The notes under the pieces are model-generated. The model did no database searches, was not told the DNA's origin, and saw nothing but the letters and a program-made list of their open reading frames with translations. DNA of 61,295 nt, taken from an uncultured virus (IMG/VR IMGVR_UViG_2049941000_000201). Taxonomy: Duplodnaviria; Heunggongvirae; Uroviricota; Caudoviricetes. Every line of letters starts with the position of its first letter. Positions within the stretch are counted from its first letter, which is position 1. Below are positions 1,853 through 29,066 of the stretch, piece by piece. The DNA lies in IMG/VR virus record IMGVR_UViG_2049941000_000201. One strand, written 5' to 3'. The translations under genes were made by a program, and so were the position numbers.

Positions 1853-1871
1853 TCTATAAGGAGAAAAAATC

Positions 1872-2303
1872 ATGGCTAATCTTCCCGTAAGAACTTTCGA
1901 CCCCAAGCTGGTCGTGATTACCTTCGGCGCGCTCTCGATTTCGGGCTATGCCGAGGGCACGTTCGTATCCGTGAACCGCTCCGGCGATGCTTTCACCAAG
2001 AGCAAGGGCGCAGGCGGCGACATCGAGCGCGTGAACCGCAACCAGGGCGATTTCGAAGTGACCGTCACCTTGCAGCAGACTTCTCCCACGAATGCCGAGC
2101 TTTCGGCCATCCTCGCTGCGGACCAGGCCTCCAACGCTGGCGTATGGCCGCTCACCATCAAGGACATTCTCGGACAGACCCTGTTCTTCGCCCCGGAGGC
2201 GTGGATCAGGAAGGACCCCGAATGGGAGGACGGCGACGACCTGAATTCCCGCGCATGGGTATTCGACACCGGCATCGCCGCAAACCTCGTCGGAGGTAAT
2301 TAA
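1872..2303 (+). CDS. Tail tube protein (DUF3277-like)
   Basis: TFDPKLVVITFG, GAGGD, VTLQQTSPTN motifs; follows the sheath gene; AAGGAG RBS. Confidence 0.85.
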   Translation: MANLPVRTFDPKLVVITFGALSISGYAEGTFVSVNRSGDAFTKSKGAGGDIERVNRNQGDFEVTVTLQQTSPTNAELSAILAADQASNAGVWPLTIKDILGQTLFFAPEAWIRKDPEWEDGDDLNSRAWVFDTGIAANLVGGN

Positions 2304-2306
2304 CCC

Positions 2307-2789
2307 ATGCTCTCCCCGATTACTAAAGAAATTGACAACTTCTCGGTCCGTTTCAGGCCGCTTCCCGCAACAAAGGCCTTCACCCTCGCGAAGAGGGTGG
2401 GAGCCCTTGTTCTCCCGCTCTTGAAGAGCTTTGACCTTTCGAAGCTTAACGCCGAGGTGGACTTGAACTCCATCATTGACGGCGTCATCGAAACTCTCTC
2501 CGGCCTTCCTGATGATAAGGCCGTGGGCATTATCGTCGATAGCCTGCAAGGCTGCACGATTGTCGCTCCCGGAAAGCCCGCCATCGAAATCAACGGGATT
2601 TCGGACGTGGACGAGGTATTCCAGGGAGAACTTGAGGCGATGTATTCCATCGTGCTCGAAAGCTGGAAGTATAACAAGCTCGCCCCTTTCAAGTTGGCGG
2701 CTCGCTTTGGGTTCCAAACGACTCAAACGGATACCTCAAGCGAAGCCGCAAGCACGCCGAGAAAGCCTGGTCCAGCATTGGCCTTGTAG
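2307..2789 (+). CDS. Tail assembly chaperone (G-like)
   Basis: 160 aa, located between the tube and tape measure genes; contains an in-frame slippery heptamer. Confidence 0.75.
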   Translation: MLSPITKEIDNFSVRFRPLPATKAFTLAKRVGALVLPLLKSFDLSKLNAEVDLNSIIDGVIETLSGLPDDKAVGIIVDSLQGCTIVAPGKPAIEINGISDVDEVFQGELEAMYSIVLESWKYNKLAPFKLAARFGFQTTQTDTSSEAASTPRKPGPALAL

Positions 2790-3004
2790 GGACGCTTGCA
2801 CCCGAAGTCGAGGAGCGTTGGCCCATATTACGCCTGGTCGTGGATATGGGCTTGCCCTTGAGCGAAGTCGAGCGCATGGACCTCAACGACATCCGACAGC
2901 TAAATGCGGTCCTGGATATGCGAAGGGACCACGACAGCGCCGCGGATGCGTGGCAGGCCGAAAACGTGAAGAAATCACAGAAGGAACGCACCAGTGGTAA
3001 TTGA
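2675..3004 (+). CDS. -1 frameshift extension of the tail chaperone (GT-like)
   Basis: The -1 frame is open from 2675 to TGA 3002-3004 (..EERWPILRLVVDMGLPLSEVERMDLNDIRQLNAVLD..). Slippery C CCT TTC at 2684-2690. Confidence 0.7.
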   Translation, partial: QARPFQVGGSLWVPNDSNGYLKRSRKHAEKAWSSIGLVGTLAPEVEERWPILRLVVDMGLPLSEVERMDLNDIRQLNAVLDMRRDHDSAADAWQAENVKKSQKERTSGN

Positions 3005-4709
3005 GGAACTATACACTCGTCTCGGGTTCAAGGTAGACCCGAAGGGCATTGACAAGGCCAAGAGCTCACTCTCCAGCTTCAAGAAGTGGGTGGGTGGTAT
3101 AGCCCTGGGAGCAGGTTTTGTGACTTTGGCAAAGACTGGCCTGGACGCTGCAATGACGATGGAGTCGCTGAATGCACAATTCACGGTCATGGCAGGGTCC
3201 GCAGAGCGTTCCCGAGACTTGCTTGCCGAGATTTCGGACTTTGCCGCAAAAACGCCATTCTCGAAGTTGGGGCTAGCGGACGCTAGTAAGACGCTCATGG
3301 CGTTCGGTCTGGAAGCCGACAATGTTGTCCCGACGCTCAAGATGCTGGGAGATGTCGCTGGAGCCGACCAGAACAAGCTAAATGGCCTCGCATTGGTGTT
3401 CGGACAGATACAAAGCACCGGCAAGCTCATGGGCCAGGATTTGCTCCAGCTCATAAATCAAGGATTTAACCCGCTCACCGAAATATCGAAGCAGACCGGC
3501 ATTTCTGTTGCGAAGCTGAAAGACGCGATGGCGCAGGGGGCTATTTCCGCTGACATGGTGACTGCCGCGTTCAAGTCCGCGACAAGCGAGGGCGGTCTCT
3601 TTTACGGAAATCTCGAAGCACAGAGCCAAACGCTTCAAGGTCGTATTTCTACCTTGAAGGACAATTTCGTAACCGCCTTGCAGAACATGGCCGAGGCGTT
3701 CATGCCGCTATTGAAGGCTGGAGTCGATATGCTTGTCGCGTTCGACTGGACCCCGATTGTGGCAAGCATCCAGTCCGTCGGCGAAGCCATGAGCACGCTT
3801 CCAGAGATGCTGGAAACGATTGCGACCTGGGCCCGCCGTCTCGCGCCGCTGGTGTATGCCGTTTTCGCTCCTCGCATAAACGCCATGGTTATGCAGTATG
3901 TAGCGTCTATGCGGTCAGCGATTATGTCGTCGGGTATCTTTGCCAGAGTCCAAGGCGTTGTGCAACGCGCGGCGCTTGCAAGCGGTGCCGCCATGGGATA
4001 CCAGGTGACGGCCATCGGGCTCCTAAAGTCCGCGATGTTTAGCCTGAAGGCGACCGCGGTTTCGTCGTTCAAGGCGATAGGGCTTGCCATGAAAACGGCA
4101 CTCGGCCCGATAGGTATTGCGCTGATGGCGATTGAAGGCTTCGTCGAGGCGTACAACTATTTGAGCGGGAAGGCCGAACGGGATGCCACCGAGGACCAGC
4201 TTCGGCAGGCGCGGGGCGTATTCAAGAACGCCGCGGTCTATGACAGGAAAACCCGCGAGCAGGTCGTGACGGATGCCGAGAATCGTCTCGCAAAGAACCG
4301 GCAGCGGGTGGAGGAGCTCCAGGAGATAGCAGGTCGGGGTGGACCCGGTGCCGGAGAGGCATCGAAGGAGCTTGCAAAACTTAGCGAGGAAATAAAGGGG
4401 CAGGAGTCGTGGGTCAATGCCTTGAAGCAGGTGTACACGGAATTAACCGGCCTTGAGTGGACTTCGAGAACCTGGGAATGGGGCGTGAAGGACCCGAAGC
4501 TGGGTGGCGACAACCGGGAATTTTTGGCGGCCTTTGCCGATTTGGAAAAGGTCATCAAGGACTCGGAAAATGCAACAAAGAAGCAGACGAAGGCTACCGA
4601 GGACAACACCCGTGCGCAGCAGAAGTTCGATATTTCCGCGCTTTCTAGGCAGGCGTTTGACGCAGCCTTCAACGTAAAACTCCGCGACCTTACCCTGGGG
4701 GCTATATAA
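2994..4709 (+). CDS. Tape measure protein
   Basis: MVIEELYTRLGFKVD start, FAAKTPF and FGQIQSTGKLMGQDLLQL tape-measure motifs; Ala-rich helical composition. Confidence 0.9.
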   Translation: MVIEELYTRLGFKVDPKGIDKAKSSLSSFKKWVGGIALGAGFVTLAKTGLDAAMTMESLNAQFTVMAGSAERSRDLLAEISDFAAKTPFSKLGLADASKTLMAFGLEADNVVPTLKMLGDVAGADQNKLNGLALVFGQIQSTGKLMGQDLLQLINQGFNPLTEISKQTGISVAKLKDAMAQGAISADMVTAAFKSATSEGGLFYGNLEAQSQTLQGRISTLKDNFVTALQNMAEAFMPLLKAGVDMLVAFDWTPIVASIQSVGEAMSTLPEMLETIATWARRLAPLVYAVFAPRINAMVMQYVASMRSAIMSSGIFARVQGVVQRAALASGAAMGYQVTAIGLLKSAMFSLKATAVSSFKAIGLAMKTALGPIGIALMAIEGFVEAYNYLSGKAERDATEDQLRQARGVFKNAAVYDRKTREQVVTDAENRLAKNRQRVEELQEIAGRGGPGAGEASKELAKLSEEIKGQESWVNALKQVYTELTGLEWTSRTWEWGVKDPKLGGDNREFLAAFADLEKVIKDSENATKKQTKATEDNTRAQQKFDISALSRQAFDAAFNVKLRDLTLGAI

Positions 4710-5380
4710 TGTATAGCGTTATCGGTGCAATATACCAGGCAATCGCTGGGAGACAGCAGCTACCGCAGCACACCTGCCTTTTTTACCGAAAGGAAGGCTA
4801 CTCCGTGGGCGGCGTTTCTCTCGACCTTATTCTTGACGAGAACCATTCCAAGTCCGCAGAAGTAACCGAGAATCCGCTGCAAGACGGCAGGGCCATCTCG
4901 GACGGCATCTATGTGAAGCTCCGCGAAGGCTCGCTCACCGGTCTCGTATCAAACCACTCGCTGAAGCATACCGAGGATATAGCCGAGGAAAACCGGAACG
5001 CCGAGGGCATCCTGAACATCGCTCAATGGCAGCCGCTGAAGAACCGCGCCGCCGAGGCATGGAACGAGCTCAAGGCGGTAATGGATGCGAAGCAGACGGT
5101 CACTATCGTTACGGCCCTAGAAGTCTACGAGAACGTGGCGGTCACCAACATCGAGACTACCCTTGACGGAGAGAGCGGCGACGCGCTCGCCATCCGGCTT
5201 ACCTTCAAGCAAGTAAAGACGGTCCAGCTCCGCGAGGACAAGGTGACGGCGCAGGTGCAACCCGAGAACATGGAAAGCGACATCAACCGTGAAACCGCCG
5301 TCGGAGTAGATGGCGGGCAGAAGGTCGGAGAGCAGCCTACCGAAGCCGACATGAAACAACTCATTCCGGGGGTGCAGTAA
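4709..5380 (+). CDS. Baseplate/tube initiator (Dit-like) protein
   Basis: DLILDENHS..EVTENPLQDG..ISD motif; follows the tape measure gene. Confidence 0.75.
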   Translation: MYSVIGAIYQAIAGRQQLPQHTCLFYRKEGYSVGGVSLDLILDENHSKSAEVTENPLQDGRAISDGIYVKLREGSLTGLVSNHSLKHTEDIAEENRNAEGILNIAQWQPLKNRAAEAWNELKAVMDAKQTVTIVTALEVYENVAVTNIETTLDGESGDALAIRLTFKQVKTVQLREDKVTAQVQPENMESDINRETAVGVDGGQKVGEQPTEADMKQLIPGVQ

Positions 5381-5736
5381 TGCTGAAAATTCCTTTTGAC
5401 GCATCGAGAAGCGCAGACCAGAATTTCCGCGTGCTCATCCCCGAGCGGATGGTGATTTCCTTGCGGCTGGTATGGAATACCCGTGCATCCGCGTGGTTCA
5501 TCACGATTTCTTCGGAGCGTGGCGAAATAGGCGCCTTCAGGATTGTCGAGCGCTGGCCCATCCTTTTCTCTCACAAGGCGATTTCCCCCATCGACGGCGA
5601 CATTATCGCCCTCCCTCTTTCCGATGGCAAGGGAAAGCCCTTGAGCCAGTATGACGCGCTTGGCGAGTCCTGGGGTCTTTTCTGGCTTTCTCCCGAAGAT
5701 GTGGCGAACTGGAAGGTGGCGAATGGTATGGGGTAG
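5380..5736 (+). CDS. Baseplate protein
   Basis: LRLVWNTRASAWFITI motif typical of small myovirus baseplate proteins; synteny. Confidence 0.65.
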   Translation: MLKIPFDASRSADQNFRVLIPERMVISLRLVWNTRASAWFITISSERGEIGAFRIVERWPILFSHKAISPIDGDIIALPLSDGKGKPLSQYDALGESWGLFWLSPEDVANWKVANGMG

Positions 5737-6694
5737 ACAGATAAGGATGGAGGCCCGGAATTCGGACGGGGTCCAGGTGGATGTTTCCGCCCTGCGCATC
5801 GACGCTCGATGCGTGCGCTCCCGCGTATTCGACGACAACGAGCTTGAGGCTACCATCCACGGCGCGAGCGACGATACCATCGCAAAGTTTCTCAAGAGAG
5901 GCACGAACGTAGCCCTCTATGCAGGGTATGAGCAGGGGGCCGAGCCTGGGCTCATTTACCAGGGCAACATCATCGACTCGAAAACGTACCGCAGCGGGAC
6001 GGAAATCCTGACCGTGATCCGATCCATCGCGATGCGCTCCTTGACGCGCCCGTTCACTTGCACTCCGGTATGCCTTCATTTCAAGCCGGGCTCCGATGCA
6101 GGGCAGGTCGTCCGGGCCATAGCGAACATCCTTGGGCTTGTGCCGATAGGCGCAGAAATGGCCTCCGAGGTAAAGTTCCCAGCAGGATGGACTTTTGCAG
6201 GCCCGGTTTCGCAGGCCATGAAGAGGCTGGCGCAGGATATGCGCACGAAGGGCGTGGGCTTGTATGTAGACCTGGCCCAAATGGTGATTTTTAAATACTC
6301 GGGAGACTCTTCCTATTCCATCGCGTATATTTCCCCGGAGAGCGGCCTGCTGAACCTTCAGGATACCACGGACTACGTGGAAGCCGCCCGCTCGAACTTG
6401 GCGAGCCTTGCGAGCAAGGTTGGCGAGGCTGCCGGGAAGGGCGACGATGTAATCCTGAAGCCCGAAGATACGGACGACGCCTATAAACTCCTTGACAAGA
6501 TTTTCACGAACATGAAAAAGACCTACTCCGCCCGCACGATGGTGATGCCGAAGGTGACCCCGAATTCCCTGGTGCATATTGCCGACAAAGGCATGGGCGT
6601 GGACGGGCTTTTCGTCGTGGATAGGATGGAAATTGCCGTCGGCAACGGCCCGGACTCTTCATTCGCTATGGACTTGAACCTTATAGAGGCATAA
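5723..6694 (+). CDS. Baseplate hub protein
   Basis: LYAGYE..GLIYQGNI and ISPESGLL motifs; lies before the spike gene. Confidence 0.75.
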   Translation: MVWGRQIRMEARNSDGVQVDVSALRIDARCVRSRVFDDNELEATIHGASDDTIAKFLKRGTNVALYAGYEQGAEPGLIYQGNIIDSKTYRSGTEILTVIRSIAMRSLTRPFTCTPVCLHFKPGSDAGQVVRAIANILGLVPIGAEMASEVKFPAGWTFAGPVSQAMKRLAQDMRTKGVGLYVDLAQMVIFKYSGDSSYSIAYISPESGLLNLQDTTDYVEAARSNLASLASKVGEAAGKGDDVILKPEDTDDAYKLLDKIFTNMKKTYSARTMVMPKVTPNSLVHIADKGMGVDGLFVVDRMEIAVGNGPDSSFAMDLNLIEA

Positions 6695-6695
6695 T

Positions 6696-7301
6696 ATGAG
6701 CATGGCATCGGCACTTGACACATATATGACCGTGGCCTTTTCCTCGGTGCATACCTCTATACCCGCTACCGTCGTGAAGTATGACGAGGGCACGCACCGC
6801 GCACAGGTTAAGCCTTCGGTGCGGATGCTCATGGATAACGGCATCCAGATAGAGCTCCCCGAGCTCATGGACGTGCCGGTGGTATTCCCTTCCGGAAAAT
6901 TCTTTGACCTGGAATTCCCGCTCGACAAGGGTGACGGCGTTCTGCTCCTTTTTGCCGAGCAGGACATTTCGGCATGGAAGAAAGGCGACTCGCCTGCGGT
7001 CCCGGCTACGGCCTCGCGCTTCAACCTTGACTCTGCCATCGCCATCCCCGGCTGCTCTTCGAAGCCCTCGAAGGGGAAAGCCCGCATCACGATAGACAAG
7101 GACGGCGTGATTACCTGGACGGCAAAGAAGTTCGTTTTTGACGGCCAGGTGGTAGCGACCGGCGACGTAATCGCTCGCGGGGATGTATTCTGCGGGCCTG
7201 CTCCGTCCGGCCCCGGAGTATCCTTGTCGCAGCACATCCACCCGACGGCGGTCGGCCCGACAAGCCCGGCAACTCCAGCACCAATTCCACCGGAGGCATA
7301 G
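6696..7301 (+). CDS. Baseplate central spike (Gp138-N/gpV-like)
   Basis: HTSIPATVVKYD, DVPVVFP, GDGVLLLFAEQDIS and C-terminal SLSQHIH metal-binding motif. Confidence 0.85.
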   Translation: MSMASALDTYMTVAFSSVHTSIPATVVKYDEGTHRAQVKPSVRMLMDNGIQIELPELMDVPVVFPSGKFFDLEFPLDKGDGVLLLFAEQDISAWKKGDSPAVPATASRFNLDSAIAIPGCSSKPSKGKARITIDKDGVITWTAKKFVFDGQVVATGDVIARGDVFCGPAPSGPGVSLSQHIHPTAVGPTSPATPAPIPPEA

Positions 7302-7304
7302 AAG

Positions 7305-7589
7305 ATGGCTCTCAATTTGACGCAATTTAAAAAGGATCTCAAGGATGCCCTTCTGACGGCCCAGGAAAAGAACCAGGTCGACAACCTCACGGAAGACCCG
7401 AAGGATGCCCCCGCAGTCGCCATGGGCAACCTGGCGGACGAACTCGCGACGGTGATTGACGCCTACATCAAGACGGCAACAGTGAGCACGACCGTGAGCA
7501 CGACGGTCACCGGCACTTGCGCTACACCTGCGGGAGCTGGAACTATTGCAGGCACCGGCTCGGGTTCTGGAACGGGGAGCCTCTCATGA
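7305..7589 (+). CDS. Small baseplate/spike-associated protein
   Basis: LATVIDAYIKTATV..GTGSGSGTGSLS; follows the spike gene. Confidence 0.5.
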   Translation: MALNLTQFKKDLKDALLTAQEKNQVDNLTEDPKDAPAVAMGNLADELATVIDAYIKTATVSTTVSTTVTGTCATPAGAGTIAGTGSGSGTGSLS

Positions 7590-7748
7590 TCGCGTCCGAT
7601 TTCCGAAAATGGGGGTCGGGTGAGTGCCGGAACGGGTTTGGAGTGGGCCACCCGGCCTCCTCTTTGATTTTTCTTTTTGAAGATGTTTTTGTGTGAAAAT
7701 AGGGCCAAAATAAGTTATATTTAGGGAATAGAAAAGGGAACCTGGAAA

Positions 7749-8105
7749 ATGCAGCTTGCGCTTGAGACATCTACATGGGATTTGCATCTCGACAAGACGG
7801 GCAATATCGCCACGCTTTCCGATGCCGTCGCGCTCCTTTCGCAGCGCATCCAGTGCAGATTGCAGACTTTCAGGGGAGAGTGCTTTCTCGACCGCTCGAT
7901 AGGCGTGCCCTACTATTCCGAGGTAATGAAGAAGAACCCCGATCTCGGGCGCATCCGTTCCCTGCTTGCAGCCGTCATCGCTGGGGTCGAAGGCGTGAAG
8001 AAGGTGCTTTCCCTCGATTTGCAGTTTGCGGCTTCCACTAGGACTTTGACCGTGCGCTTTCGGGTGCAAGGCACTTCAGGGGAAATTGCCGAAGGAGCGA
8101 TTTAA
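7749..8105 (+). CDS. Baseplate wedge/sheath initiator (gp25-like)
   Basis: QRIQCRLQTFRGECFLDRSIGVPY motif. Confidence 0.8.
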   Translation: MQLALETSTWDLHLDKTGNIATLSDAVALLSQRIQCRLQTFRGECFLDRSIGVPYYSEVMKKNPDLGRIRSLLAAVIAGVEGVKKVLSLDLQFAASTRTLTVRFRVQGTSGEIAEGAI

Positions 8106-8108
8106 AAA

Positions 8109-9533
8109 ATGGAATACGTGACCGATACAGGGCTGAAGAAAAAGACCCTCCAGGAACTCCGCATCGAGACCGAGAACGACCTCAAGCAAGACTTTGGCGT
8201 CGGCTTCGAGACTTCCGTCGATAGCCCGAACGGCCTGCTCATCTCGCAGCTCGCGCTCGCAAATAGCCGCCTCTGGGACCTCGCGCAGGAAATCTATTCT
8301 TCGCTCGACCCTAACCAGGCTACCGGCACTGCGCTCGATGCAAGGGCCTCCTTTAACGGAGTAACCCGAAAGCCTGCCGAGGCCTGCACCGTCACCGCCA
8401 TGCTCTACACCGAGGATGAGAGCGCCACCATCCCTGCTGGCTCGATAGCGAACCGGCAGCGTGGCGACCTCGACTTTGCGCTTGACGAGGCCGTGAGCAT
8501 CGACCGCGCGTCATGCGCAGAGCTGATGCTCGATATTTCCGATGTGGAGTCCGGCACCTATACTCTTGAATTTTCGTTCGGGAATGTATCCTGGGACACT
8601 ACGTCATCCACGACTCTCGCTTCGCTTATTACTACCGCAGGCGGCATCGCTGAAGAAACCCCTCGCGGGCTTCGCGTGACCTATTCCAGCGGCTCGGTCG
8701 GCCTGACCGGAAGCATCCCCGACGGCGTGATAGTTCAGGCGGGAATGCCCGGAAAATTTACCGCAGTATCTACCGGATACCAGACCTGCGAAATCGGTGA
8801 GCTCGACAACATCCCTACTAGCGTGGACGGCTGGAGCTCGGTCTACAACTACGAGGCGGGAACGCCCGGCGCCGATACCGAAACCGACGTCTCGCTCCGC
8901 GTGCGCCGAGAAGCTGCCGCGAAGGTTAAGAAAAGCAAGGCTACCGACCCCGCCACCGAGGCGGCCCTGCTCGATGTTCCGGGCGTGACTACGGCCCGCG
9001 TTTTCAGCAACAGGGGCTTCGATACGAATGCCGACGGCGTGCCCGGGAAATCGTTTACCTCTCTCGTCGTTGGCGGCACCGATGCCGATATAGCCCGTTG
9101 TATTTACGAGAACCAGCCCTCGGGCATCCAGTCCTGGGGAAATACCTCGGTGAACGTGACGGATAGCCACGGCTTTGAGCAGCAGATTTCCTTCAGCAGG
9201 CCGACGCCGAAGTATCTCTGGGTCAAGTTCTACTATCATGTCTACGACGAAGAAGTTTTCCCCGGAGCGGATGCAATCAAGACGGCCATGGTCGAATGGG
9301 CTGACAAGCAGTACACGCTGGGCAAGGATGTCATCCCGACAAGAATTCCGGGCGGCATCTACGAGCTCGTGGCGGGCGTAGGCGTTTCGATGGCGCACGT
9401 CGCCATTACGGACAGCCCGGACACGGTTCCTTCCTCCGGCGACTACTCGTGGGATACTGCGCTGGCTATCCCGCCGTTTGCGTATGCGGTTCTCGAAGAG
9501 GACCGGATCGAGACTATCCTCGAAAATGATTAA
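8109..9533 (+). CDS. Baseplate J-like protein
   Basis: LDPNQATGTALD, GADTETDVSLRVR and VVGGTDADIA motifs. Confidence 0.9.
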   Translation: MEYVTDTGLKKKTLQELRIETENDLKQDFGVGFETSVDSPNGLLISQLALANSRLWDLAQEIYSSLDPNQATGTALDARASFNGVTRKPAEACTVTAMLYTEDESATIPAGSIANRQRGDLDFALDEAVSIDRASCAELMLDISDVESGTYTLEFSFGNVSWDTTSSTTLASLITTAGGIAEETPRGLRVTYSSGSVGLTGSIPDGVIVQAGMPGKFTAVSTGYQTCEIGELDNIPTSVDGWSSVYNYEAGTPGADTETDVSLRVRREAAAKVKKSKATDPATEAALLDVPGVTTARVFSNRGFDTNADGVPGKSFTSLVVGGTDADIARCIYENQPSGIQSWGNTSVNVTDSHGFEQQISFSRPTPKYLWVKFYYHVYDEEVFPGADAIKTAMVEWADKQYTLGKDVIPTRIPGGIYELVAGVGVSMAHVAITDSPDTVPSSGDYSWDTALAIPPFAYAVLEEDRIETILEND

Positions 9534-9561
9534 AGTTTATAGAAATTAGGGTGCAGGCATA

Positions 9562-10209
9562 ATGAGCGAAGTCATCACAAGCTATTCGGAAGCGCAGCGC
9601 AAGTATGTGCCCGAGCAATACAAGCGGAGCGAGAAGCTGCTCGGCTTGATAGATTGCGACCTTGCGATGGCAGACGAAATCGAGAAGGCCCTGCACGAAA
9701 TCGGGGACTCGTTTACACTTGATGATGCCGTCGGTCCGATGCTCGATTTTTATGGAGCCTATGCCGGAGGATTTTCCCGCCGCGTGGGCGAAACTGACGA
9801 CCAGTTCCGCGCCCGCATAAAGCTAGGAACCGGAACCGAGGACCTGCCTACTCTTGAGGCGGTCTACAATTATTTCGAGCTTGCGCTAGGCATTACCGAT
9901 GTCGGTCTTTTCCCGGTATGGCCCGCAGGGCTTTATTTTGTTATTTTGCAGGGCTCCCCGGAGATAGATGCCGAGGACCTGGAAAATATCGCGGCGGCTT
10001 CGGGTGTCGATTTTGGGCAGGGCACATTCCTCTCTTGCGAGGATGGTGAACCCTGGGGGCTCATAGTCCTGGAGGACAACGGGCAACCGATTGTCGTGGA
10101 CCAGCGGTGGCCGGATACTTTGTATGAACTTGTGGATGATGATGGAAATTACCTAGTGGATAGCGAAGGGAATCACCTTGTAGCATTGGACTTTTTAACC
10201 ACAACCTAG
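9562..10209 (+). CDS. Baseplate wedge protein (DUF2612-like)
   Basis: LDDAVGPMLD..G..RR.GETDDQFRARIK; follows J. Confidence 0.7.
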   Translation: MSEVITSYSEAQRKYVPEQYKRSEKLLGLIDCDLAMADEIEKALHEIGDSFTLDDAVGPMLDFYGAYAGGFSRRVGETDDQFRARIKLGTGTEDLPTLEAVYNYFELALGITDVGLFPVWPAGLYFVILQGSPEIDAEDLENIAAASGVDFGQGTFLSCEDGEPWGLIVLEDNGQPIVVDQRWPDTLYELVDDDGNYLVDSEGNHLVALDFLTTT

Positions 10210-10221
10210 TGGAGAAAAATT

Positions 10222-10809
10222 ATGGCAACGAAAAGAATCAAAGACCTCACATCTACTGCAACGGCGGAAGACCTCCTATCCGGCCGATATGGAGTATTGG
10301 ACACCCCGAACATAACTAAAAGGTTGCCTGGGAATTTATTGGGCGGCGGTGGCGGCGGCGGTGGAGATACAGGTATCGTAGTATTTGAGGTATCTTATTC
10401 CGAAAGTATTGCCGATTATGTTTACCCTACATATGAAGAAGTGGCTTCTGCTGTGTCGGCAGGTAAGATGCCTGTAATACTATTGTACGTGCATAATAGT
10501 CCGATTCGGCGTTGTTTTGTGTTTAGGTGGTTATCCGGGGGCTACGCCCATTTTGACAATGACAGTCAGTGTGTTGAAATATCTAATGCAAATGTCGTGA
10601 AAACTGGATATATCAACGATAAGAACTTGGCAGCAGATTATGACCCGACTGCTACTTATAATGTAGGCGATTATTGTATGTATCATAATGAGTTGTTTGT
10701 ATGTACTACGGATATATCGGTTGCCGAAGAATGGGATGGTTCTCATTGGCAGCGTACACGTATGTCCGATATAGTTGGCAATGTGGAAACCCTCTTGGCT
10801 GCGTTGTAA
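10222..10809 (+). CDS. Tail fibre/adaptor with C-terminal carbohydrate-binding-like module
   Basis: KRIKDL N-terminus, poly-Gly linker, YDPTATYNVGDYCMYHNELFVC..WDGSHW (CBM5/12-like). Confidence 0.6.
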   Translation: MATKRIKDLTSTATAEDLLSGRYGVLDTPNITKRLPGNLLGGGGGGGGDTGIVVFEVSYSESIADYVYPTYEEVASAVSAGKMPVILLYVHNSPIRRCFVFRWLSGGYAHFDNDSQCVEISNANVVKTGYINDKNLAADYDPTATYNVGDYCMYHNELFVCTTDISVAEEWDGSHWQRTRMSDIVGNVETLLAAL

Positions 10810-10821
10810 GGAGGTGATAAG

Positions 10822-11742
10822 ATGAGTATCGCAAGCGAAATTACAAGGTTGCAGGGCGTGAAGTCCGACATATTGCAGGCCATAAGCGATAAGGGCGTTG
10901 TGGTTCCTGCGGGTAGTGCGTTGGACGATTGTCCAGTCCTTATTGCTAGTATTAGTGGCGGTGGCGGTGGTGGCGGCAATGGTGTATATTTACAGGCGAT
11001 TCTTCCGGTTTCCGGCGGAAGAGTGCTTGTCGTGGACGAAAATGGGTATATCGGTCGTAAAAGTCTCCCGACATATTATCCTTCAGCTTATACCAGTTAT
11101 GCCTTTGTAGTAAGCGGTGCAGATTTTTCGAGTTCAGGTCTTGGCCAAGTAACTTTGGTTACTCCGGGAACGGCTGATATTGGAGGTCGTTCTTACCGAA
11201 CTGTGTCTATTAACGGTGTCATTTGGATGGCTGAAAATCTTGATTTTAAGGCTTCTGGTATTGACATTGGGCCGTCTGGATCTCCTGGAACTCCCGCTGC
11301 ATGGTACTACAATAACAGTGAAAGTACCTATGGCGAAAATGGCAATAAGTACGGGTTGCTCTATAATTGGCATGCAGTAAAGCATCTTAACGACAACCGT
11401 GAACTGTTGATGAACGGCTGGCATGTCCCTACAACAGCAGAGTGGGATGCTTTAGCCAATGCCGTTGGAGGTACTGGAGTAGCAGGTTCGAAGCTTAAAT
11501 CATCTACAGGATGGTCATCTGGTAACGGAACCGACGACTTCGGCTTTGCGGCCTTTCCTGCTGGCCGCCGGCGCTCGGGCTCCTTCAACGATTTAGGCAG
11601 CTACGCGTACTTCTGGACGGCCACAGAGTACTCGTCCACCAGCGCCTACAGCCGTTACTTTGATACGGGCGCATCGATGCTCTCGTACAACTACGATAAG
11701 GCTAGCTACGCCTTTTCTGTTCGTCTCGTCAAGGATTCCTAA
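10822..11742 (+). CDS. Receptor-binding tail-tip protein with Fib_succ_major (FISUMP, C-type-lectin fold) domain; DGR target
   Basis: YRTVSING.IWMAENL, YGLLYNW, GWHVPTTAEW, FAAFPAG, AYFWT and FSVRLVKD motifs; MSIASEITRL fibre N-terminus. Confidence 0.9.
   Translation: MSIASEITRLQGVKSDILQAISDKGVVVPAGSALDDCPVLIASISGGGGGGGNGVYLQAILPVSGGRVLVVDENGYIGRKSLPTYYPSAYTSYAFVVSGADFSSSGLGQVTLVTPGTADIGGRSYRTVSINGVIWMAENLDFKASGIDIGPSGSPGTPAAWYYNNSESTYGENGNKYGLLYNWHAVKHLNDNRELLMNGWHVPTTAEWDALANAVGGTGVAGSKLKSSTGWSSGNGTDDFGFAAFPAGRRRSGSFNDLGSYAYFWTATEYSSTSAYSRYFDTGASMLSYNYDKASYAFSVRLVKDS
11560..11742 (+). repeat. Putative DGR variable region (VR) plus IMH
   Basis: Putative variable codons are almost all NNC/NAT (cgc, tac, agc, gat, ctc), as expected from AAC/AAT templates. 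GC rises relative to the rest of the gene. Confidence 0.7.
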
Positions 11743-11748
11743 GTGAGC

Positions 11749-11868
11749 CTAGGCCCTTTGGGGCCTAGAGCGAACGGGACCGGAGCGCCGCAAGGCGCAC
11801 GGTCCTGAATTTAATTAAATTTGCCCCCCGGCTAAGCATCCAGAAGCAAGGCTGCGAAGCAGCCTTGC
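11749..11868 (+). promoter_or_regulatory. DGR-type hairpins downstream of VR
   Basis: CTAGGCCC-tttg-GGGCCTAG (11749-68), GCGCC-gcaa-GGCGC (11785-98) and GCAAGGCTGC-gaa-GCAGCCTTGC (11846-68). Confidence 0.65.
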
Positions 11869-11878
11869 GAATTTTTTT

Positions 11879-12007
11879 ATGAATACAGAAGACATCATAA
11901 AGTTTGAAAATAACGCCGGAAACGAACTCCATCTGTTTCGTGACAGACTGTTCTGGCAGGCTTGGGAACGTTCTGCGTTCCTTTTTTCAAAAATCTTTAG
12001 AAAATAC
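11879..12007 (+). pseudogene. Truncated MutS-I-like (MSL) DGR accessory gene, N-terminal ~43 codons
   Basis: IIKFE...LHLFRDRLFWQAWERSAFLF resembles the MutS domain-I N-terminal pattern; the frame loses resemblance after FRKY. Confidence 0.6.
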
Positions 12008-12237
12008 AATTACAGCCCGCAGCCTTCGGTTTTGACTTCCTTGGTGTCCATATATTGCCCTATAGGGTATATCCTGGCACCAGGGTGCTTAAAAACTGCA
12101 AAAAGGCCGTTGTCAATCCAGACAACGACCAGGCTAAACAGGAGTCAAGAATCAATAGTTACGAAGGCATGTTTAAGCACTTGAATGGGACCAGTAAAAT
12201 TCGTAAATTTATAGCCGATTCAAGGAAACCTCAATAA
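12001..12237 (+). pseudogene. Reverse transcriptase C-terminal remnant (DGR RT domain 7 and thumb)
   Basis: KIQLQPAAFGFDFLGVHILPYRVYPG...RINSYEGMFKH. An in-frame TAG immediately precedes it, and there is no YxDD. Confidence 0.8.
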
Positions 12238-12417
12238 CCGTTCAATCGGTTTTGTAATACAATTAAATTTTGTCTCACGAAAAGCGGTTAGCGTTCTCAC
12301 GACAACCGCGCCGTTATAACGGGACCACCTGCTGAAAAAAAATATATATTTGGATTGTTCTCATTTGTATGTTTTTATTTATTGTGTTGTTACACCCTAA
12401 CAAAAAGGAACTCCCCT

Positions 12418-13107
12418 ATGCCTTACAACAGACAAATACCCGATGCACCCATAGCGCTTTCCATGCTGCCGAGAGATGAAAGCCCTGTGGCGTCCGACTT
12501 GATTTATATAGCAAAGCCGAACGCCCCTATCAGGCAAAGAAGCAAGGCGGTTGAACTTTCTGCGCTTTTTGGAAGTGACCCCGCGAAATATGCCCCTAGG
12601 ATAATTTGTTCTAATATCCTGGAATATTCCGGCGCGTTGGCGGCGACATCTACTGCATCACCACTTACGGAAGTTGCGCACGTCGATATTGACCCGCGTC
12701 TCGATGTTCAGTTCCATGTTTGGGGAACTTCGGACCCGGCTTCGGATGGTTCGGAATACAATACTTACTCGTATGGCTTGCGGGGCCGCGTGCGTATGAT
12801 GTATCTGCCGGACGACCAGGACCGCGACCTTATGGCGATAGCTCCTTCTGGCTTTCGAAATTCGGACGGCTCAGGACCTGCACCGACTTATAACGCGTTC
12901 TTTGGGTGCTTGCCGTTCGATTATTCCCCGTCTCCGAACGATCTGCTCCATTATCCTACAAAGCGTGTGACTTTGTTTTTGTCCAGCGGAGCTACTGAAA
13001 GTCCGTATCATGGAACCGAACCCTCATCTTTTGCGCTAAATATACAGGCGACGATTTTCCCGCGACAGATTGACACCACAATTTTAAAAGCCACCGCCAC
13101 CCCGTAA
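12418..13107 (+). CDS. Putative second tail fibre/virion protein
   Basis: N-terminal LSMLP..PVASDLIYIAK..RSKAVELSALF resembles fibre-attachment motifs; position in the tail module. Confidence 0.4.
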   Translation: MPYNRQIPDAPIALSMLPRDESPVASDLIYIAKPNAPIRQRSKAVELSALFGSDPAKYAPRIICSNILEYSGALAATSTASPLTEVAHVDIDPRLDVQFHVWGTSDPASDGSEYNTYSYGLRGRVRMMYLPDDQDRDLMAIAPSGFRNSDGSGPAPTYNAFFGCLPFDYSPSPNDLLHYPTKRVTLFLSSGATESPYHGTEPSSFALNIQATIFPRQIDTTILKATATP

Positions 13108-13116
13108 GGTTTAAAG

Positions 13117-13710
13117 ATGGATATAACAGGCATCGACATAGCCGCAGTCGCGGGCTTGGTAGGAACGACGGGTACCGCCATCGTTTCCATCGTCAAGGCG
13201 GTCCAGGCGTCCCGAAAAGCTGGTGACGCGGACCGGCGTGCTCTCGACATCGAGCTCGCCCGCGAAAAGACCAAACGCGAACGCGACCAGGAATTGCAGT
13301 CGCTCAAGACCGAGGTCGCCGTTCTCAAGGCTTTACAGGATGAAACGAACAAGCGGCTGGCCGAAAGTACGGACCAGTTCAAGGCGCTCGACGACAAGGT
13401 NNNNNNNNNNGTGCGCAAGGCGGAAGCCGCAGACGCCCGCGCCATAGCCATAGAACTGCAACGGGAGCAGGCAAAGAAGGACCGCGACCGGGAAATTGAA
13501 AACCTAAAGTCCGAAGTAAAGGTGCTCCAGCACGAAAACAAGGAAGTGCGGGAGCGCTTGAGCGAAGGGAACGGACACTTTGTGCGCCTAGAAGGCGAGG
13601 TCAAGGAAACGAACGGCCTGCTCCGTGAAATTATCGGGGCGCTGCGGAACAAGGGGCTTGTGATTTCCGAAACGCACAAGGTTGCACGCGACGCGGGGCT
13701 GGAACTATGA
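13117..13710 (+). CDS. Holin-like membrane coiled-coil protein; two allele fragments across an N gap
   Basis: N-terminal transmembrane helix. The segment RKA..AD.RA..IEL.RE..K..RD.E...LK.EV.VL occurs twice around the gap. Upstream of the endolysin. Confidence 0.5.
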   Translation: MDITGIDIAAVAGLVGTTGTAIVSIVKAVQASRKAGDADRRALDIELAREKTKRERDQELQSLKTEVAVLKALQDETNKRLAESTDQFKALDDKXXXXVRKAEAADARAIAIELQREQAKKDRDREIENLKSEVKVLQHENKEVRERLSEGNGHFVRLEGEVKETNGLLREIIGALRNKGLVISETHKVARDAGLEL

Positions 13711-14701: not shown

Positions 14702-16960
14702 TTAGAAAAGTTCGTCGCCGCTTGCTTCCAGCGTCCGTTCCGCGCTTTCCAGGTTCTTCACCGCCTGCCGGAAATAACTTTCCTTCAATTCGCAGCCAAC
14801 GAACTGGCGCCCCATGGGCACGGCGCAGTATCCTTCGCTTCCAATTCCCATGAACGGGCTGAAAACAAGGTCGCCTGGCTTGCTCCAAAGTTGCAGGGCG
14901 CGTTCAATTACGTCAAGTTGCAGCGGGCAAATGTGCTTTTCGTCCTTTTCCTCGCGTGCGCTTTCCTTTTGCAGCGTGCGCGAAGCCCTAATGTCCATCC
15001 ACACCGGGCTGGCGTAGCGCTGCCAAATTTCAATGGAATTTCGCGTCTTGTCTGCACCAAGTTCGGGCGGGTTTTCACCAACGAAACGGGTAAGTTCGCC
15101 TTCAATGCGGTCGGCGTTTTCGCCCGGCTTGCGCATGGTCACAAGGTAGTCGGGTATTCCGTTTCGGGAAATGGAACTGTCCTTTACAAGTTGCTTGTGC
15201 AGCAGGCCGATGGCCTTCGTGCGCTGCATGGCGGTCACCGGGTCCTTCCAAATGGTGACCTCGCTATGGTAAATCCACCCGCATTCCGTGAAGAGCCGGA
15301 TAAGTTCGCCACGGAAATCGCTAATGCCAATGAAGCCGTCCCGCGCCTTTGTGGTGGGCAGGTTCATGCAGTGGAACGAAACAAGCCTGCCCGGCTTTGT
15401 TATGCGGAAAAGTTCCCTTACAATGAAGCGGAAGTGTTCAATGAACTGGTCCGTGGTGTCGCAGTTGCCAAGGTCGCGCACGGAGTTGGAATAGGTGTAA
15501 AGGCTTGCAAACGGCGGGCTGAAAATGCTGAAGCCCACGGAATTGTCCTGCATTTCCTTGATAAGTTCGCAGGTGTCCCCCAGGTACGCGGTGTAGTTCT
15601 TGCCCCTTGCGCATTCTTGCATATACGTGTCCTCCATTTTGGCGGTTTTGTTTAGGTTCGTGTTTATGGTGCAGTTCGCAATCATGCAGTCCAGCATCTT
15701 CTTGAAGTTTTCGCCCTTGCGCACAATGTTCTCAAAAACAAAGCGCTCCTCGTTAGCCATTACAACCTGCACCGCCACCGGGCAGCGCTGCCCGAAGCGC
15801 CAGCACCTGCGGACGGCCTGGTAGTACATTTCGTAGGAATGGGAAACGCTGGAAAAGATTACGTTGTGGCAATTCTGCCAGTTCATGCCGAACCCGGCAA
15901 TGGAAACCTTCGTGATAAGCACGCGGTACTTGCCGGAGGCGAAGCCAAGCAGGCGGTCAATTTTTGCGTCTTCCTGGGTTGACCCCGCAACCTGCACGGC
16001 GCCGGGAATAAGGCGCTCCAGCATGTCGCCTTCCTCGTTGCGTTCGCACCACACAAGGAACTGCTCCCGGCTTGCGTTCACAATTTCCGCAACCCTTGCG
16101 GCGCGGGCTTCCAGGCTTGCCTTCTTGATTTGCGAAAGTTCCGAAAGCGAGCAGTTGGTCACGAACAAGTCGTCGCTTTCCAGTTTTATTCCGGCGTCCA
16201 CGTAAACCGGGTCCACCCGCAGTTCGGGCAGGTTGTACCCTTCCGCGCTATACCCAATTTCGGCGGGGTTCTTGAACATGACCGCCCAACTTGCAATCCA
16301 CTTCCAAAATTCGTCCTCGGCGTGCCCCTTTATTGTCCACTTGCTTGTTTCCCCGCCATCGTGGAAAAAGAACTTTGAAAGCATACATTCGCGGGTCATT
16401 ACCCCAAGGAACTCGGCATGGTTGCCCAGTTCCATGTAGTCGTTCGGGCTGGGCGTTGCGGTGCAGGCCAACTTGAACGGGGTTTTTGCGAACGTTTCAA
16501 TTATTAGGGTGCGCATCTTGCCGTCAAACGATTTCAAAATGCTGCTTTCGTCCAGCACCACCCCGGCAAATTCTTCCGGGTTGAACTTTGCGATTTGCTC
16601 GTAGTTGGTGATGGTGATTTTGCCCTTCTTTTTTCCGTCGCGGGAAAGCAGCACGTCAATTCCGTACTTTTTGCCCTCGGCTATTGTCTGCTCGGCAACC
16701 GCAAGCGGGGAAACGACCAAGACGTCCCCCCCACTGGGGTTGTTTGCAACCTGCCAAGCCCACTGCAACTGCATCATCGTCTTGCCAAGGCCGCAATCGG
16801 CAAAAATGGCGGCTTTCCCCAGGCGCAGCGCCCAGCGGACGACATCGTGCTGGAACTTGAACATTTGCGTCCCGTTCTGCGGAACAAGCGCCTCGTCAAT
16901 TTCAAAGCCCACGGGCTTAAATTCAATGCTTTTGGATTTCAAAAATTCGGTATATTCCAT
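14702..16960 (-). CDS. SF2 helicase - N4/N6 DNA methyltransferase fusion
   Basis: DCGLGKT, DESS, TATP and QAVRRCWRFGQ helicase motifs; SPPF and FSPFMGIGS methyltransferase motifs. Confidence 0.9.
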   Translation of the reverse strand: MEYTEFLKSKSIEFKPVGFEIDEALVPQNGTQMFKFQHDVVRWALRLGKAAIFADCGLGKTMMQLQWAWQVANNPSGGDVLVVSPLAVAEQTIAEGKKYGIDVLLSRDGKKKGKITITNYEQIAKFNPEEFAGVVLDESSILKSFDGKMRTLIIETFAKTPFKLACTATPSPNDYMELGNHAEFLGVMTRECMLSKFFFHDGGETSKWTIKGHAEDEFWKWIASWAVMFKNPAEIGYSAEGYNLPELRVDPVYVDAGIKLESDDLFVTNCSLSELSQIKKASLEARAARVAEIVNASREQFLVWCERNEEGDMLERLIPGAVQVAGSTQEDAKIDRLLGFASGKYRVLITKVSIAGFGMNWQNCHNVIFSSVSHSYEMYYQAVRRCWRFGQRCPVAVQVVMANEERFVFENIVRKGENFKKMLDCMIANCTINTNLNKTAKMEDTYMQECARGKNYTAYLGDTCELIKEMQDNSVGFSIFSPPFASLYTYSNSVRDLGNCDTTDQFIEHFRFIVRELFRITKPGRLVSFHCMNLPTTKARDGFIGISDFRGELIRLFTECGWIYHSEVTIWKDPVTAMQRTKAIGLLHKQLVKDSSISRNGIPDYLVTMRKPGENADRIEGELTRFVGENPPELGADKTRNSIEIWQRYASPVWMDIRASRTLQKESAREEKDEKHICPLQLDVIERALQLWSKPGDLVFSPFMGIGSEGYCAVPMGRQFVGCELKESYFRQAVKNLESAERTLEASGDELF

Positions 16961-29030: not shown

Positions 29031-29066
29031 GGGTTGTTCCTTTTTTTGTTTCCATATTATAGCAAA

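What the first reader, a model, noticed from the sequence alone, without database searches (positions are those of the whole stretch)
10822..12237. Fossil diversity-generating retroelement: receptor-binding VR frozen by a deletion joining accessory gene to RT
Seen: a C-type-lectin-fold FISUMP tail-tip gene ends in a VR-like stretch with NNC/NAT codons and is followed by three hairpins. Next is the start of a MutS-I-like gene that, at AGAAAATAC (~11999-12007), switches into a different frame encoding an RT C-terminus (KIQLQP..GFDFLG..INSYEG..KH). No YxDD core and no adenine-rich template repeat were found in the window. Known: DGRs are arranged target-VR/IMH/hairpin-accessory-TR-RT, and MutS-like accessory genes occur in them. 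Inference: one microhomology-type deletion (AAAATA reads as K-Y in the accessory frame and K-I in the RT frame) removed TR and most of RT. This would lock a tropism variant while leaving cis elements that an intact DGR could still mutagenize in trans. The ORF track hides this as two meaningless short ORFs.
Basis: partly seen in the sequence, partly recalled or inferred. Interest (0 to 1): 0.85.

Follow-up and report, generated by a model that had tools for sequence, protein, structure and literature searches.

The report
Phage tail-fibre hypermutation cassette killed by deletion
A rumen phage carries a tail-fibre gene that was once rewritten by a diversity-generating retroelement, but a 1.8-kb deletion removed the template and most of the enzyme, so the receptor-binding tip is now fixed.

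Summary
Window 10822-11742 is a FISUMP-domain gene whose last ~200 nt (11542-11748) are a DGR variable region. Three conserved hairpins follow it. Next come the first 43 codons of a DGR accessory gene (11879-12007), then, in another frame, the last 78 codons of a DGR reverse transcriptase (12001-12237).

Eighteen related contigs carry the intact cassette: target, 275-aa accessory (MutS-domain-I-like N-domain plus Avd-like four-helix bundle), TR, and RT with a YVDD motif. In five of eight of these checked, the 7-mer AAAATAC occurs twice, about 1.79 kb apart. The window keeps one copy (12001-12007) and lacks everything between.

The window VR differs from the nearest relatives' TR at 20 of 21 positions at TR adenines (Fisher p 3e-12). 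No RT core or TR lies elsewhere in the window.

A k=31 contig of a public run bridges the junction at ~50x with no mismatch, so this is not an assembly collapse. All junction evidence comes from one sample, however.

New context: the intact relatives are Mu-like transposable Fibrobacter (pro)phages with the DGR at their right end. The window is an unrelated 61-kb phage that took over that end module, terminus included. This is a degraded member of a known system and is of moderate interest.

The parts
10222..10809 (+). 195-aa protein upstream of the target. Similarity to the Mu-like relatives' module begins in its last codons, at about 10775.
   Evidence: blastn similarity to L002-L008 starts at 10775. 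The upstream genes differ between phage groups but share a C-terminal motif. No Pfam or PHROG family was found.
10822..11742 (+). DGR target gene, a 306-aa FISUMP-domain protein. It is a likely tail-fibre / receptor-binding protein, judged from its position after the baseplate genes.
   Evidence: PF09603 E 2.7e-30 and TIGR02145 E 1.1e-35. Baseplate J / wedge protein at 8109-9533 and a baseplate-like protein at 9562-10209 lie upstream.
11542..11707 (+). Mutable part of the variable region (VR). Substituted sites run from 11566 to 11707.
   Evidence: Compared with the L003 TR, 20 of 21 mismatches lie at TR adenines (53 A in 198 nt; Fisher p 2.7e-12). With L004 and L008 it is 19 of 20. Sixteen of 66 residues differ, 15 of them at TR Asn (AAC) codons.
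11708..11748 (+). IMH-like 3' end of the VR. It is invariant against the TR up to 11735, then differs at non-adenine positions from the relatives' IMH*.
   Evidence: Alignment A2. The non-A mismatches lie at the 3' end. This stretch is identical to the VR end of the intact relative L004.
11747..11771 (+). Hairpin 1, directly after the VR.
   Evidence: L009 and L010 have a shorter stem that keeps pairing through an A-U to G-C change.
11775..11807 (+). Hairpin 2: a GC-rich two-part stem with a 4-nt loop, about 28 nt after the end of TR/VR similarity.
   Evidence: It lies within the 4-34 bp range reported for DGR hairpin/cruciform elements (PMC3240598, passages read).
11846..11878 (+). Hairpin 3 plus a T run. 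It looks like an intrinsic terminator and ends right before the accessory start codon.
   Evidence: (I11).
11879..12007 (+). Remnant of the accessory gene: its first 43 codons, which are part of the MutS-domain-I-like N-domain. The frame then runs on out of frame to 12184.
   Evidence: The full 275-aa protein in relatives has an N-domain whose best fold matches are MutS domain I (1fw6_A Z 5.9, rmsd 2.9, 83 aligned). Its C-domain is Avd-like (4dwl Z 12.2; NF033474 E 2e-5, under cut-off).
12001..12007 (+). Deletion junction: the single remaining copy of the 7-bp microhomology AAAATAC.
   Evidence: Alignment A1. There are two copies 1791-1794 bp apart in L002, L003, L004, L006 and L007.
12001..12237 (+). 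Remnant of the reverse transcriptase: its last 78 codons plus the stop, beginning at the motif-6 lysine. A TAG in frame at 11998 precedes it.
   Evidence: The full RT in L003 scores RVT_1 E 2.5e-17 and phrog_1423 E 9e-89 and carries YVDD.
12273..12318 (+). End of the shared module: two 14-nt subterminal direct repeats and a terminal 11-mer. This is the right end of the Mu-like donor phage genome.
   Evidence: D4. All 13 relatives that reach this point share the 11-mer and diverge from each other and from the window immediately after it.
12355..13107 (+). First gene of the window phage's own backbone after the module: a 250-aa protein whose N-terminal ~70 aa are conserved among backbone relatives.
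   Evidence: tblastn hits in 9 of 10 backbone relatives. No family was found.

Best explanation
The window holds a dead diversity-generating retroelement (DGR). The phage's FISUMP tail-fibre gene keeps its variable region, IMH and downstream hairpins. A single deletion of about 1.79 kb between two copies of AAAATAC removed the last 232 codons of the accessory gene (including all of its Avd-like domain), the template repeat, and the first 308 codons of the reverse transcriptase, including its YVDD active site.

Shown: the anatomy, the seamless junction, the intact homologues, the adenine-specific relation of this VR to the relatives' TR, and the presence of the junction in the sequenced DNA.

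Inferred:
- The deletion arose by replication slippage or microhomology-mediated joining.
- The phage can no longer rewrite its receptor-binding tip, so the VR is fixed at the last variant written.
- The whole module was acquired from a Mu-like transposable Fibrobacter phage. It replaced the backbone's usual tail-fibre gene and carried along the donor's genome end.
For: Intact homologues. Eight of 9 viral loci found with the RT remnant hold target-accessory-TR-RT. The window aligns to them up to 12007 and again from 12001, with about 1.79 kb missing between. Five of 5 metagenome contigs are intact, two being the same contigs as L006 and L008. Seven of 7 examined Fibrobacter/MAG loci, out of 80 returned, are also intact.

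Junction. It carries a 7-bp microhomology and no extra bases.

TR/VR relation. The relatives' own TR/VR mismatches are mostly at TR adenines: L002 16/17, L003 21/23, L004 18/23, L006 20/21, L007 18/24, L008 18/20, L009 18/22, L010 13/15. Window VR against the L003 TR gives 20/21 at adenines, p 2.7e-12.

No second copy. Only the two remnants and the VR match the L003 accessory, RT and deleted segment anywhere in the window.

Junction in sequenced DNA. Run X1 has a 786-nt k=31 contig covering 11652-12437 at depth 50 with 0 differences. In run X3 two contigs overlap by 30 nt across the junction. Depth is flat at 50-60 on both sides. The IMG/VR record G002 holds the same junction.

Cis elements. 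The window is identical to intact L004 through the VR end and the whole 151-nt spacer.

Origin of the module. G003, G004 and G007 (3 of 5 records) encode a 651-678-aa protein with rve and Mu-transpos_C domains above cut-off. Thirteen relatives share the terminal 11-mer and then all diverge. Ten backbone relatives have another ~3-3.7 kb in place of window 10146-13400 (in L121 a 713-aa ORF fills it) and give no RT or accessory hit.
Against: All records of the junction (window, G002, runs X1 and X3) come from one sample that may be the window's source, so there is no independent replicate.

The runs are held as contigs, which drop rare variants. Neither the share of intact molecules nor VR variation could be measured.

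In X3 the contig breaks exactly at 12007. A TR-like contig at depth 5-7 lies over 11542-11638 in both X1 and X3. An intact cassette of the same lineage is therefore present in the same sample at roughly a tenth of the depth. Whether it sits on this phage's backbone is unknown.

The window differs from the run contigs at 5 positions in the target gene: 11056, 11244, 11346, 11349 and 11355.

No backbone relative with an intact DGR was found. The deletion could therefore have happened in the donor, at transfer, or afterwards.
Confidence: 0.9

Rival explanations
1. Assembly artefact: an intact DGR was collapsed or mis-joined by the assembler, and the phage really has a TR and a full RT.
For: The window is a scaffold with 12 N runs. 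TR/VR repeats are known to disturb assemblies. IMG/VR pieces G001 and G002 break at 11345/11416, close to the VR.
Against: The two sides of the junction share only 7 bases, far fewer than any assembler's k. A k=31 contig of run X1 bridges it with 349 and 430 matching bases on either side at depth 50. Depth is flat across the junction. A second assembly, G002, has the same junction. No N run lies within 1 kb of the junction, and the largest N run is 170 bases.
Confidence: 0.03
2. The element is deleted but not frozen. The VR is still rewritten in trans by an intact cognate DGR, either a co-infecting Mu-like relative or a Mu-like prophage resident in the Fibrobacter host. The phage would then have outsourced its mutagenesis machinery.
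For: The IMH and hairpins are identical to those of intact L004. The relatives' TR matches this VR at all non-adenine positions of the mutable part. A TR-like contig of the same lineage occurs in the same sample at depth 5-7. Intact cassettes sit in Fibrobacter MAG contigs. In the Bordetella phage, a phage lacking avd-TR-brt is a working recipient when a plasmid supplies them (BPP-1 delta-ATR; PMC3240598, passages read).
Against: In X3 a single contig at depth 59 runs from 10700 to 12007 through the whole VR, with no branch. The dominant VR in X1 and X3 equals the window's. There is no direct sign of variation, although contigs cannot show rare variants.
Confidence: 0.15
3. The deleted form is a defective minority or transient variant of a phage whose functional form keeps the DGR. 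The low-depth TR contig would then be the same backbone.
For: The TR-like contigs and the contig break at 12007 in X3 show an intact cassette in the sample.
Against: The deleted form has 50-59x depth against 5-7x for the TR-like contig, so it is the majority. None of 10 backbone relatives carries a DGR. The known carriers of the intact cassette are Mu-like phages.
Confidence: 0.07

Closest known systems
Bordetella phage BPP-1 DGR (mtd-avd-TR-brt) and its laboratory derivative BPP-1 delta-ATR
   Same: A tail-fibre target has the VR at its 3' end, an IMH, and a GC-rich hairpin just downstream. The accessory gene, TR and RT follow on the same strand, and mutagenesis is adenine-specific. The window resembles the engineered delta-ATR phage, which lacks accessory, TR and RT but keeps a usable target (PMC3240598, passages read; PMC5758913, passages read).
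   Different: The loss here is natural, through a 7-bp microhomology. The target domain is FISUMP rather than Mtd. The accessory has an extra MutS-I-like N-domain. There are three hairpins, and none of their loops matches the reported 5'-GRNA loop consensus exactly.
MSL-containing DGRs (Architecture D of Wu et al. 2018, PMC5758913)
   Same: The accessory protein shows MutS-like features next to an Avd function. The reported MSL size range of 112-283 aa includes 275 aa (passages read).
   Different: The paper describes MSL genes co-occurring with separate avd genes. Here one 275-aa protein carries both domains. I did not see its supplementary tables, which may list such fusions.
Hankyphage, the Mu-like transposable Bacteroides phage with a tail-fibre DGR (PMC6199706; PMC12135933)
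   Same: The intact relatives of this cassette are (pro)phages with a Mu-like transposase, a DGR on a tail-fibre gene, and a different flank at every site. Their hosts belong to the same FCB superphylum (passages read).
   Different: The hosts here are Fibrobacter. 5-bp target duplications and the left end were not examined. The window itself is not such a phage: it has no transposase hit and holds only the end module, with the DGR broken.
Degraded or orphaned DGR parts in cyanobacteria (PMC7517822)
   Same: That paper reports a target paralogue with remnant TR-VR homology but no RT, and a cassette reduced to an RT alone. The authors suggest that diversification components are removed once a good variant is selected (passages read).
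   Different: Those cases are chromosomal, with no breakpoint resolved. Here the breakpoint, the microhomology and near-identical intact copies are all in hand, and the element sits in a phage.

Membership tests
Diversity-generating retroelement (functional cassette) | Reverse transcriptase of the DGR type with an intact catalytic core (YxDD) | tested here: not met
   The window keeps only the last 78 codons. No other RT match exists in the window. Relatives have the full RT with YVDD.
Diversity-generating retroelement (functional cassette) | Template repeat paired with a variable repeat, differing at TR adenines | tested here: not met
   There is no TR in the window. The VR is present and relates to the relatives' TRs in the adenine-specific way: 20/21 and 19/20 twice.
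Diversity-generating retroelement (functional cassette) | IMH at the VR 3' end, differing from IMH*, followed by a GC-rich inverted repeat | tested here: met
Diversity-generating retroelement (functional cassette) | Accessory variability determinant (Avd-like four-helix bundle) | tested here: not met
   The window keeps 43 codons of the N-domain only. In relatives the C-domain matches Avd by fold (4dwl_A Z 12.2, rmsd 2.3, 100 aligned; 8ub7_B Z 12.2). By sequence it scores under cut-off (NF033474 E 2e-5; PF22296 E 0.028).
FISUMP / Fib_succ_major domain proteins | Match to PF09603 / TIGR02145 above the curated cut-off | tested here: met
   106.5 bits against a cut-off of 33.9, and 123.9 bits against 41.65.
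C-type lectin fold DGR variable proteins | CLec fold of the VR-bearing domain | not tested
The only signals are a weak Lcl_C hit (E 0.004, under cut-off) and no PDB sequence match. The general link between VRs and CLec folds comes from PMC8144416 (passage read).
MSL (MutS-like) DGR accessory proteins | Domain related to MutS domain I | tested here: inconclusive
   The N-domain model has pLDDT 90. The top three of 48,161 chains are MutS-family N-terminal mismatch-binding domains: 1fw6_A Z 5.9 over residues 15-97, 8olx_B Z 5.3, 2o8b_A Z 5.0. Foldseek returns many MutS rows with probability 0.8-0.97 but E 0.15 or worse. The Atlas nearest cluster is named 'MutS-like N-terminal domain', score 0.94. 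There is no Pfam, NCBIfam or PDB sequence hit. Z below 8 can reflect only a common arrangement.
Mu-like transposable phages (the intact relatives, not the window) | MuA-type transposase (rve core plus Mu-transpos_C) | tested here: met
   Found in 3 of 5 records (G003, G004, G007), above cut-off. The two without it are 20-23 kb fragments. The window has no hit.
Mu-like transposable phages (the intact relatives, not the window) | A fixed genome end joined to a different flank at each site | tested here: met
   Thirteen of 13 relatives that reach the end share the terminal 11-mer and diverge right after it. The left end and 5-bp duplications were not found or not examined.

The most novel reading that the evidence does not exclude
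The phage has not given up hypermutation but outsourced it. Its VR, IMH and hairpins are still identical to those of intact cassettes, and those cassettes live in Mu-like prophages of the same Fibrobacter hosts. Each infection of such a lysogen would then expose the RT-less phage's tail-fibre VR to the resident prophage's RT, accessory protein and TR RNA. A lytic phage would borrow a prophage's DGR in trans.
Probability: 0.15. Interest if true: 0.7.

Novelty: new member of a known kind. Interest (0 to 1): 0.4.

Why it matters
The case gives a resolved natural example of how a DGR dies: one microhomology deletion, with the breakpoint, the undecayed remnants and near-identical intact copies all available. 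It is the natural counterpart of the laboratory delta-ATR phage.

It also shows that a DGR-diversified receptor-binding module can move from Mu-like temperate Fibrobacter phages into an unrelated 61-kb phage. In that phage none of the 68 frames scanned matched an integrase or transposase family. This fits the published observation that DGRs are found in temperate phages (PMC6199706, passage read).

It offers a testable system for DGR action in trans between phages in the rumen. Finally, it is a caution for annotation: the two remnants look like meaningless short ORFs, and DGR finders that start from an RT will miss the locus.

Tried and rejected
Own genome. The window's assembly is not held, so I worked with handles and loci instead.

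Remnants alone. Pfam on the two remnants gave nothing. tblastn against GenBank phages gave only weak RT hits, with best E 7e-3.

Accessory protein. A profile search against PDB sequences found 0 hits. The full-length accessory model filled the fold lists with helical bundles and left the N-domain untested, so the N-domain was folded alone.

Target protein. Search against PDB sequences found 0 hits.

Backbone relatives. A search with the 250-aa downstream protein found only G002. The baseplate protein worked.

Mu-like left end. A search for an inverted copy of the terminal 11-mer in G003, G004 and G007 found none convincing. The window has only the one copy, plus a 1-mismatch site at 54710 that is no more than chance.

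Runs. X5 and X6 gave identical figures, appear to be one data set filed twice, and hold the intact form only. The small 'joints' inside the VR (11633>11716, 11637>11709; depth about 6, side 20-29) were set aside as cross-matches of other FISUMP repeats.

Earlier findings of this scan: none for this genome.
Full report
**What the window is.** The 61,295-base window is a tailed-phage genome. Neck, tail-tube, tape-measure, Dit-like and baseplate genes lie at 13-10209. Lysis, methylase/helicase and replication genes lie in the middle. Portal, Mu-F-like, DUF2213 and cement-protein head genes lie at 52-58 kb. It contains 12 N runs of 10-170 bases, none within 1 kb of the finding. None of the 68 frames of 80 aa or more that I scanned matched an integrase, transposase or reverse transcriptase family.

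**The observation.**
- The gene at 10822-11742 is a 306-aa FISUMP-domain protein (PF09603 E 2.7e-30; TIGR02145 E 1.1e-35). It follows a baseplate J/wedge protein and a baseplate-like protein.
- The 151 nt after its stop fold into three strong hairpins at 11747-11771, 11775-11807 and 11846-11868 (z -6.9; 0 of 200 shuffles as good). The third is followed by a T run and looks like a terminator.
- At 11879 a frame opens whose first 43 residues end in ...RKY.
- From 12001 another frame, preceded by a TAG at 11998, reads KIQLQP...GFDFLG...SYEG... to a stop at 12235-12237.

**What the remnants are.**
- The 78-aa frame is 96-97% identical to the C-terminus of RVT_1 proteins. It is 100% identical to residues 309-386 of the RT encoded in related contigs.
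- The 43-aa frame is the N-terminus of those contigs' 275-aa accessory protein (97.7% over 44 aa).
- blastn shows the window aligning to eight viral loci (L002-L004, L006-L010) from 10775 to 12007 and again from 12001 to about 12320. About 1.79 kb of each locus is absent from the window.
- In L003 that stretch holds the rest of the accessory gene (4085-4912), a TR (4942-5148) and the RT (ORF 5077-6237, with YVDD).
- The intact sequences carry AAAATAC once in the accessory gene and once in the RT, 1791-1794 bp apart, in L002, L003, L004, L006 and L007. L008 has a one-base variant on the left, and L009 and L010 lack the repeat.
- The window has a single copy at 12001-12007 and no additional bases.

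**The DGR is real in the relatives, and this VR came from such a TR.**
- Each intact relative has a TR/VR pair whose mismatches are mostly at TR adenines: 16/17, 21/23, 18/23, 20/21, 18/24, 18/20, 18/22 and 13/15.
- Their VRs all differ from one another.
- Over 198 ungapped positions the window's VR differs from the L003 TR at 21 sites, 20 of them TR adenines (53 A in the TR; Fisher p 2.7e-12). For L004 and L008 it is 19 of 20.
- The remaining difference, and three more just beyond, lie at the 3' end where the VR (IMH) and TR (IMH*) differ in all relatives.
- At protein level 16 of 66 residues differ, 15 at TR Asn codons.
- No TR, RT core or second accessory copy exists elsewhere in the window.

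**Cis elements.** The window is identical to intact L004 through the VR end and the whole spacer. The three hairpins are kept in all nine aligned sequences. Hairpin 1 is rebuilt with a shorter stem in L009 and L010, and three pairs show compensatory changes. For the Bordetella phage, a GC-rich hairpin 4-34 bp after the VR is needed for efficient homing. IMH plus hairpin suffices to make a heterologous gene a target. A phage lacking avd-TR-brt is a recipient when these are supplied from a plasmid (PMC3240598, passages). None of the loops here fits the published 5'-GRNA loop consensus exactly, so which hairpin plays that role is open.

**The accessory protein.**
- With 38 homologues, the model shows an alpha/beta N-domain (residues 1-108) and a four-helix bundle (127-233).
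- The bundle matches Bordetella Avd (4dwl_A Z 12.2, rmsd 2.3, 100 aligned) and the Avd chains of the DGR ribonucleoprotein (8ub7_B Z 12.2). It also gives a sub-threshold NCBIfam Avd hit (E 2e-5).
- Folded alone (pLDDT 90), the N-domain's three best matches among 48,161 chains are the N-terminal mismatch-binding domains of MutS-family proteins (Z 5.9, 5.3, 5.0). Foldseek gives many MutS rows at weak E-values. The protein atlas places it next to a cluster named 'MutS-like N-terminal domain' (0.94).
- This agrees with the MSL accessory class of Wu et al. (PMC5758913, passages), but the scores are modest, so I rate the relation probable rather than shown.
- Homologues of the accessory are named from Fibrobacter, Fibromonadaceae and Chitinispirillales.

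**Is the junction real?**
- The two sides share only 7 bases, so a k-mer assembler cannot create the join without reads that contain it.
- In run X1 a 786-nt contig at depth 50 covers 11652-12437 without a difference. In X3 a 2042-nt contig ends at 12007 and a 460-nt contig starts at 11978, a 30-nt (k-1) overlap. Depth is 50-60 on both sides.
- The IMG/VR record G002 is 100% identical to the window over about 20 kb, including the junction, but was assembled differently: it lacks 201 bases at 13210-13410.
- All of this comes from one sample, flagged as the possible source, so the deletion is confirmed as DNA but not replicated elsewhere.
- The one independent data set laid (X5, which equals X6) holds the intact form. 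Its loose ends at 12007 and 12001 continue into the accessory and RT sequence, and TR flanks appear at 11542 and 11740.
- Exact-pattern scans of the right junction found 7 viral contigs (6 intact, 1 deleted, the latter being G002) and 5 metagenome contigs (all intact).

**Frozen or not?**
- In X3 one contig at depth 59 runs through the entire VR. In X1 and X3 the dominant VR equals the window's. That fits a fixed VR, but contigs drop rare variants.
- In both runs a contig of depth 5-7 starts exactly at 11542 and carries A where the window VR has G or C (11567, 11572, 11573, 11590). This is a TR of the L004/L008 type.
- An intact cognate cassette therefore coexists in the sample at about a tenth of the depth. 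Its carrier is unknown.

**Where the module came from.**
- Downstream of the RT, all 13 relatives that reach that far share sequence up to the same 11-mer (window 12308-12318). Every one then continues differently, some into what look like bacterial genes.
- Two 14-nt direct repeats lie just inside that end.
- The longer records G003, G004 and G007 encode a 651-678-aa protein with rve and Mu-transpos_C domains. Two shorter fragments do not reach that region.
- RTs 96-98% identical lie in Fibrobacter succinogenes and Fibrobacter sp. MAG contigs. The seven loci I examined all hold intact cassettes.
- The relatives are therefore Mu-like transposable Fibrobacter (pro)phages with the DGR at their right end. 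This resembles the Bacteroides hankyphage (PMC6199706, PMC12135933; passages).
- The window is not such a phage. It has no similar transposase and no other similarity to those phages outside 10775-12320.
- Its own backbone relatives (baseplate protein 92-95% identical) match it at about 91% up to 10145 and again from about 13411. They carry about 3-3.7 kb of other sequence in between. In L121 a 713-aa ORF fills this stretch. There is no RT or accessory hit in 10 of 10 examined.
- I infer that the window phage replaced its tail-fibre module with the end module of a Mu-like phage, terminus included. Whether the deletion happened before, during or after that transfer cannot be told.

**Comparison and novelty.** This is a degraded member of a known system. 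Loss of DGR parts has been noted before, with the suggestion that diversification is removed once a good variant is found (PMC7517822, passages). 'Inactive' DGRs are also reported at scale (PMC8144416, passages). My literature searches did not turn up a phage case with a resolved microhomology breakpoint, nor one where a Mu-like phage's DGR end module sits inside another phage. Those searches cover open-access text only. The finding is correct and tidy, and its interest is moderate.

Noticed in passing
window 12273-12318; L002-L030 equivalents: The module shared with relatives ends at one exact base. An 11-mer preceded by two 14-nt direct repeats is followed by a different sequence in each of 13 relatives and in the window. 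This looks like the right end of a Mu-like transposable phage genome embedded inside another phage.
   Followed up: partly
G003, G004, G007 (records of L004, L008, L010): The carriers of the intact cassette encode a 651-678-aa MuA-like transposase (rve plus Mu-transpos_C). Two are classed as proviruses. They appear to be Fibrobacter counterparts of the Bacteroides hankyphage. The left end and target duplications were not located.
   Followed up: partly
window 10146-13400 versus L121-L128: Backbone relatives (about 91% nt identity on both sides) carry a different ~3-3.7 kb here. In L121 a 713-aa ORF fills it. This is a swappable receptor-binding module. The 250-aa protein at 12355-13107 shares only its N-terminal ~70 aa with most relatives.
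   Followed up: partly
window 13117-13710 (N run 13401-13410): This coiled-coil protein has an internal repeat. The window has 201 bases (13210-13410) that record G002 lacks, probably a tandem repeat resolved differently by two assemblies.
   Followed up: no
window 11056, 11244, 11346, 11349, 11355: The run contigs of the likely source sample differ from the window at these five positions at full depth. The IMG/VR pieces G001 and G002 break at 11345/11416. Two haplotypes of the target gene upstream of the VR seem to coexist.
   Followed up: no
window 14702-16960 (-) and 28158-30788 (-): There is one 752-aa fusion of an SNF2/ResIII-type helicase with an N6/N4 DNA methylase. A separate SNF2 helicase (29067-30788) lies next to a methylase (28158-29030). 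These may be anti-restriction or epigenetic functions of the phage.
   Followed up: no
L003 5077-5140 and proteins P0003, P0004: In intact relatives the RT reading frame is open through the TR. Gene callers therefore produce 'FISUMP plus RVT_1' fusion proteins of 430-431 aa. This is an annotation artefact to be aware of.
   Followed up: no
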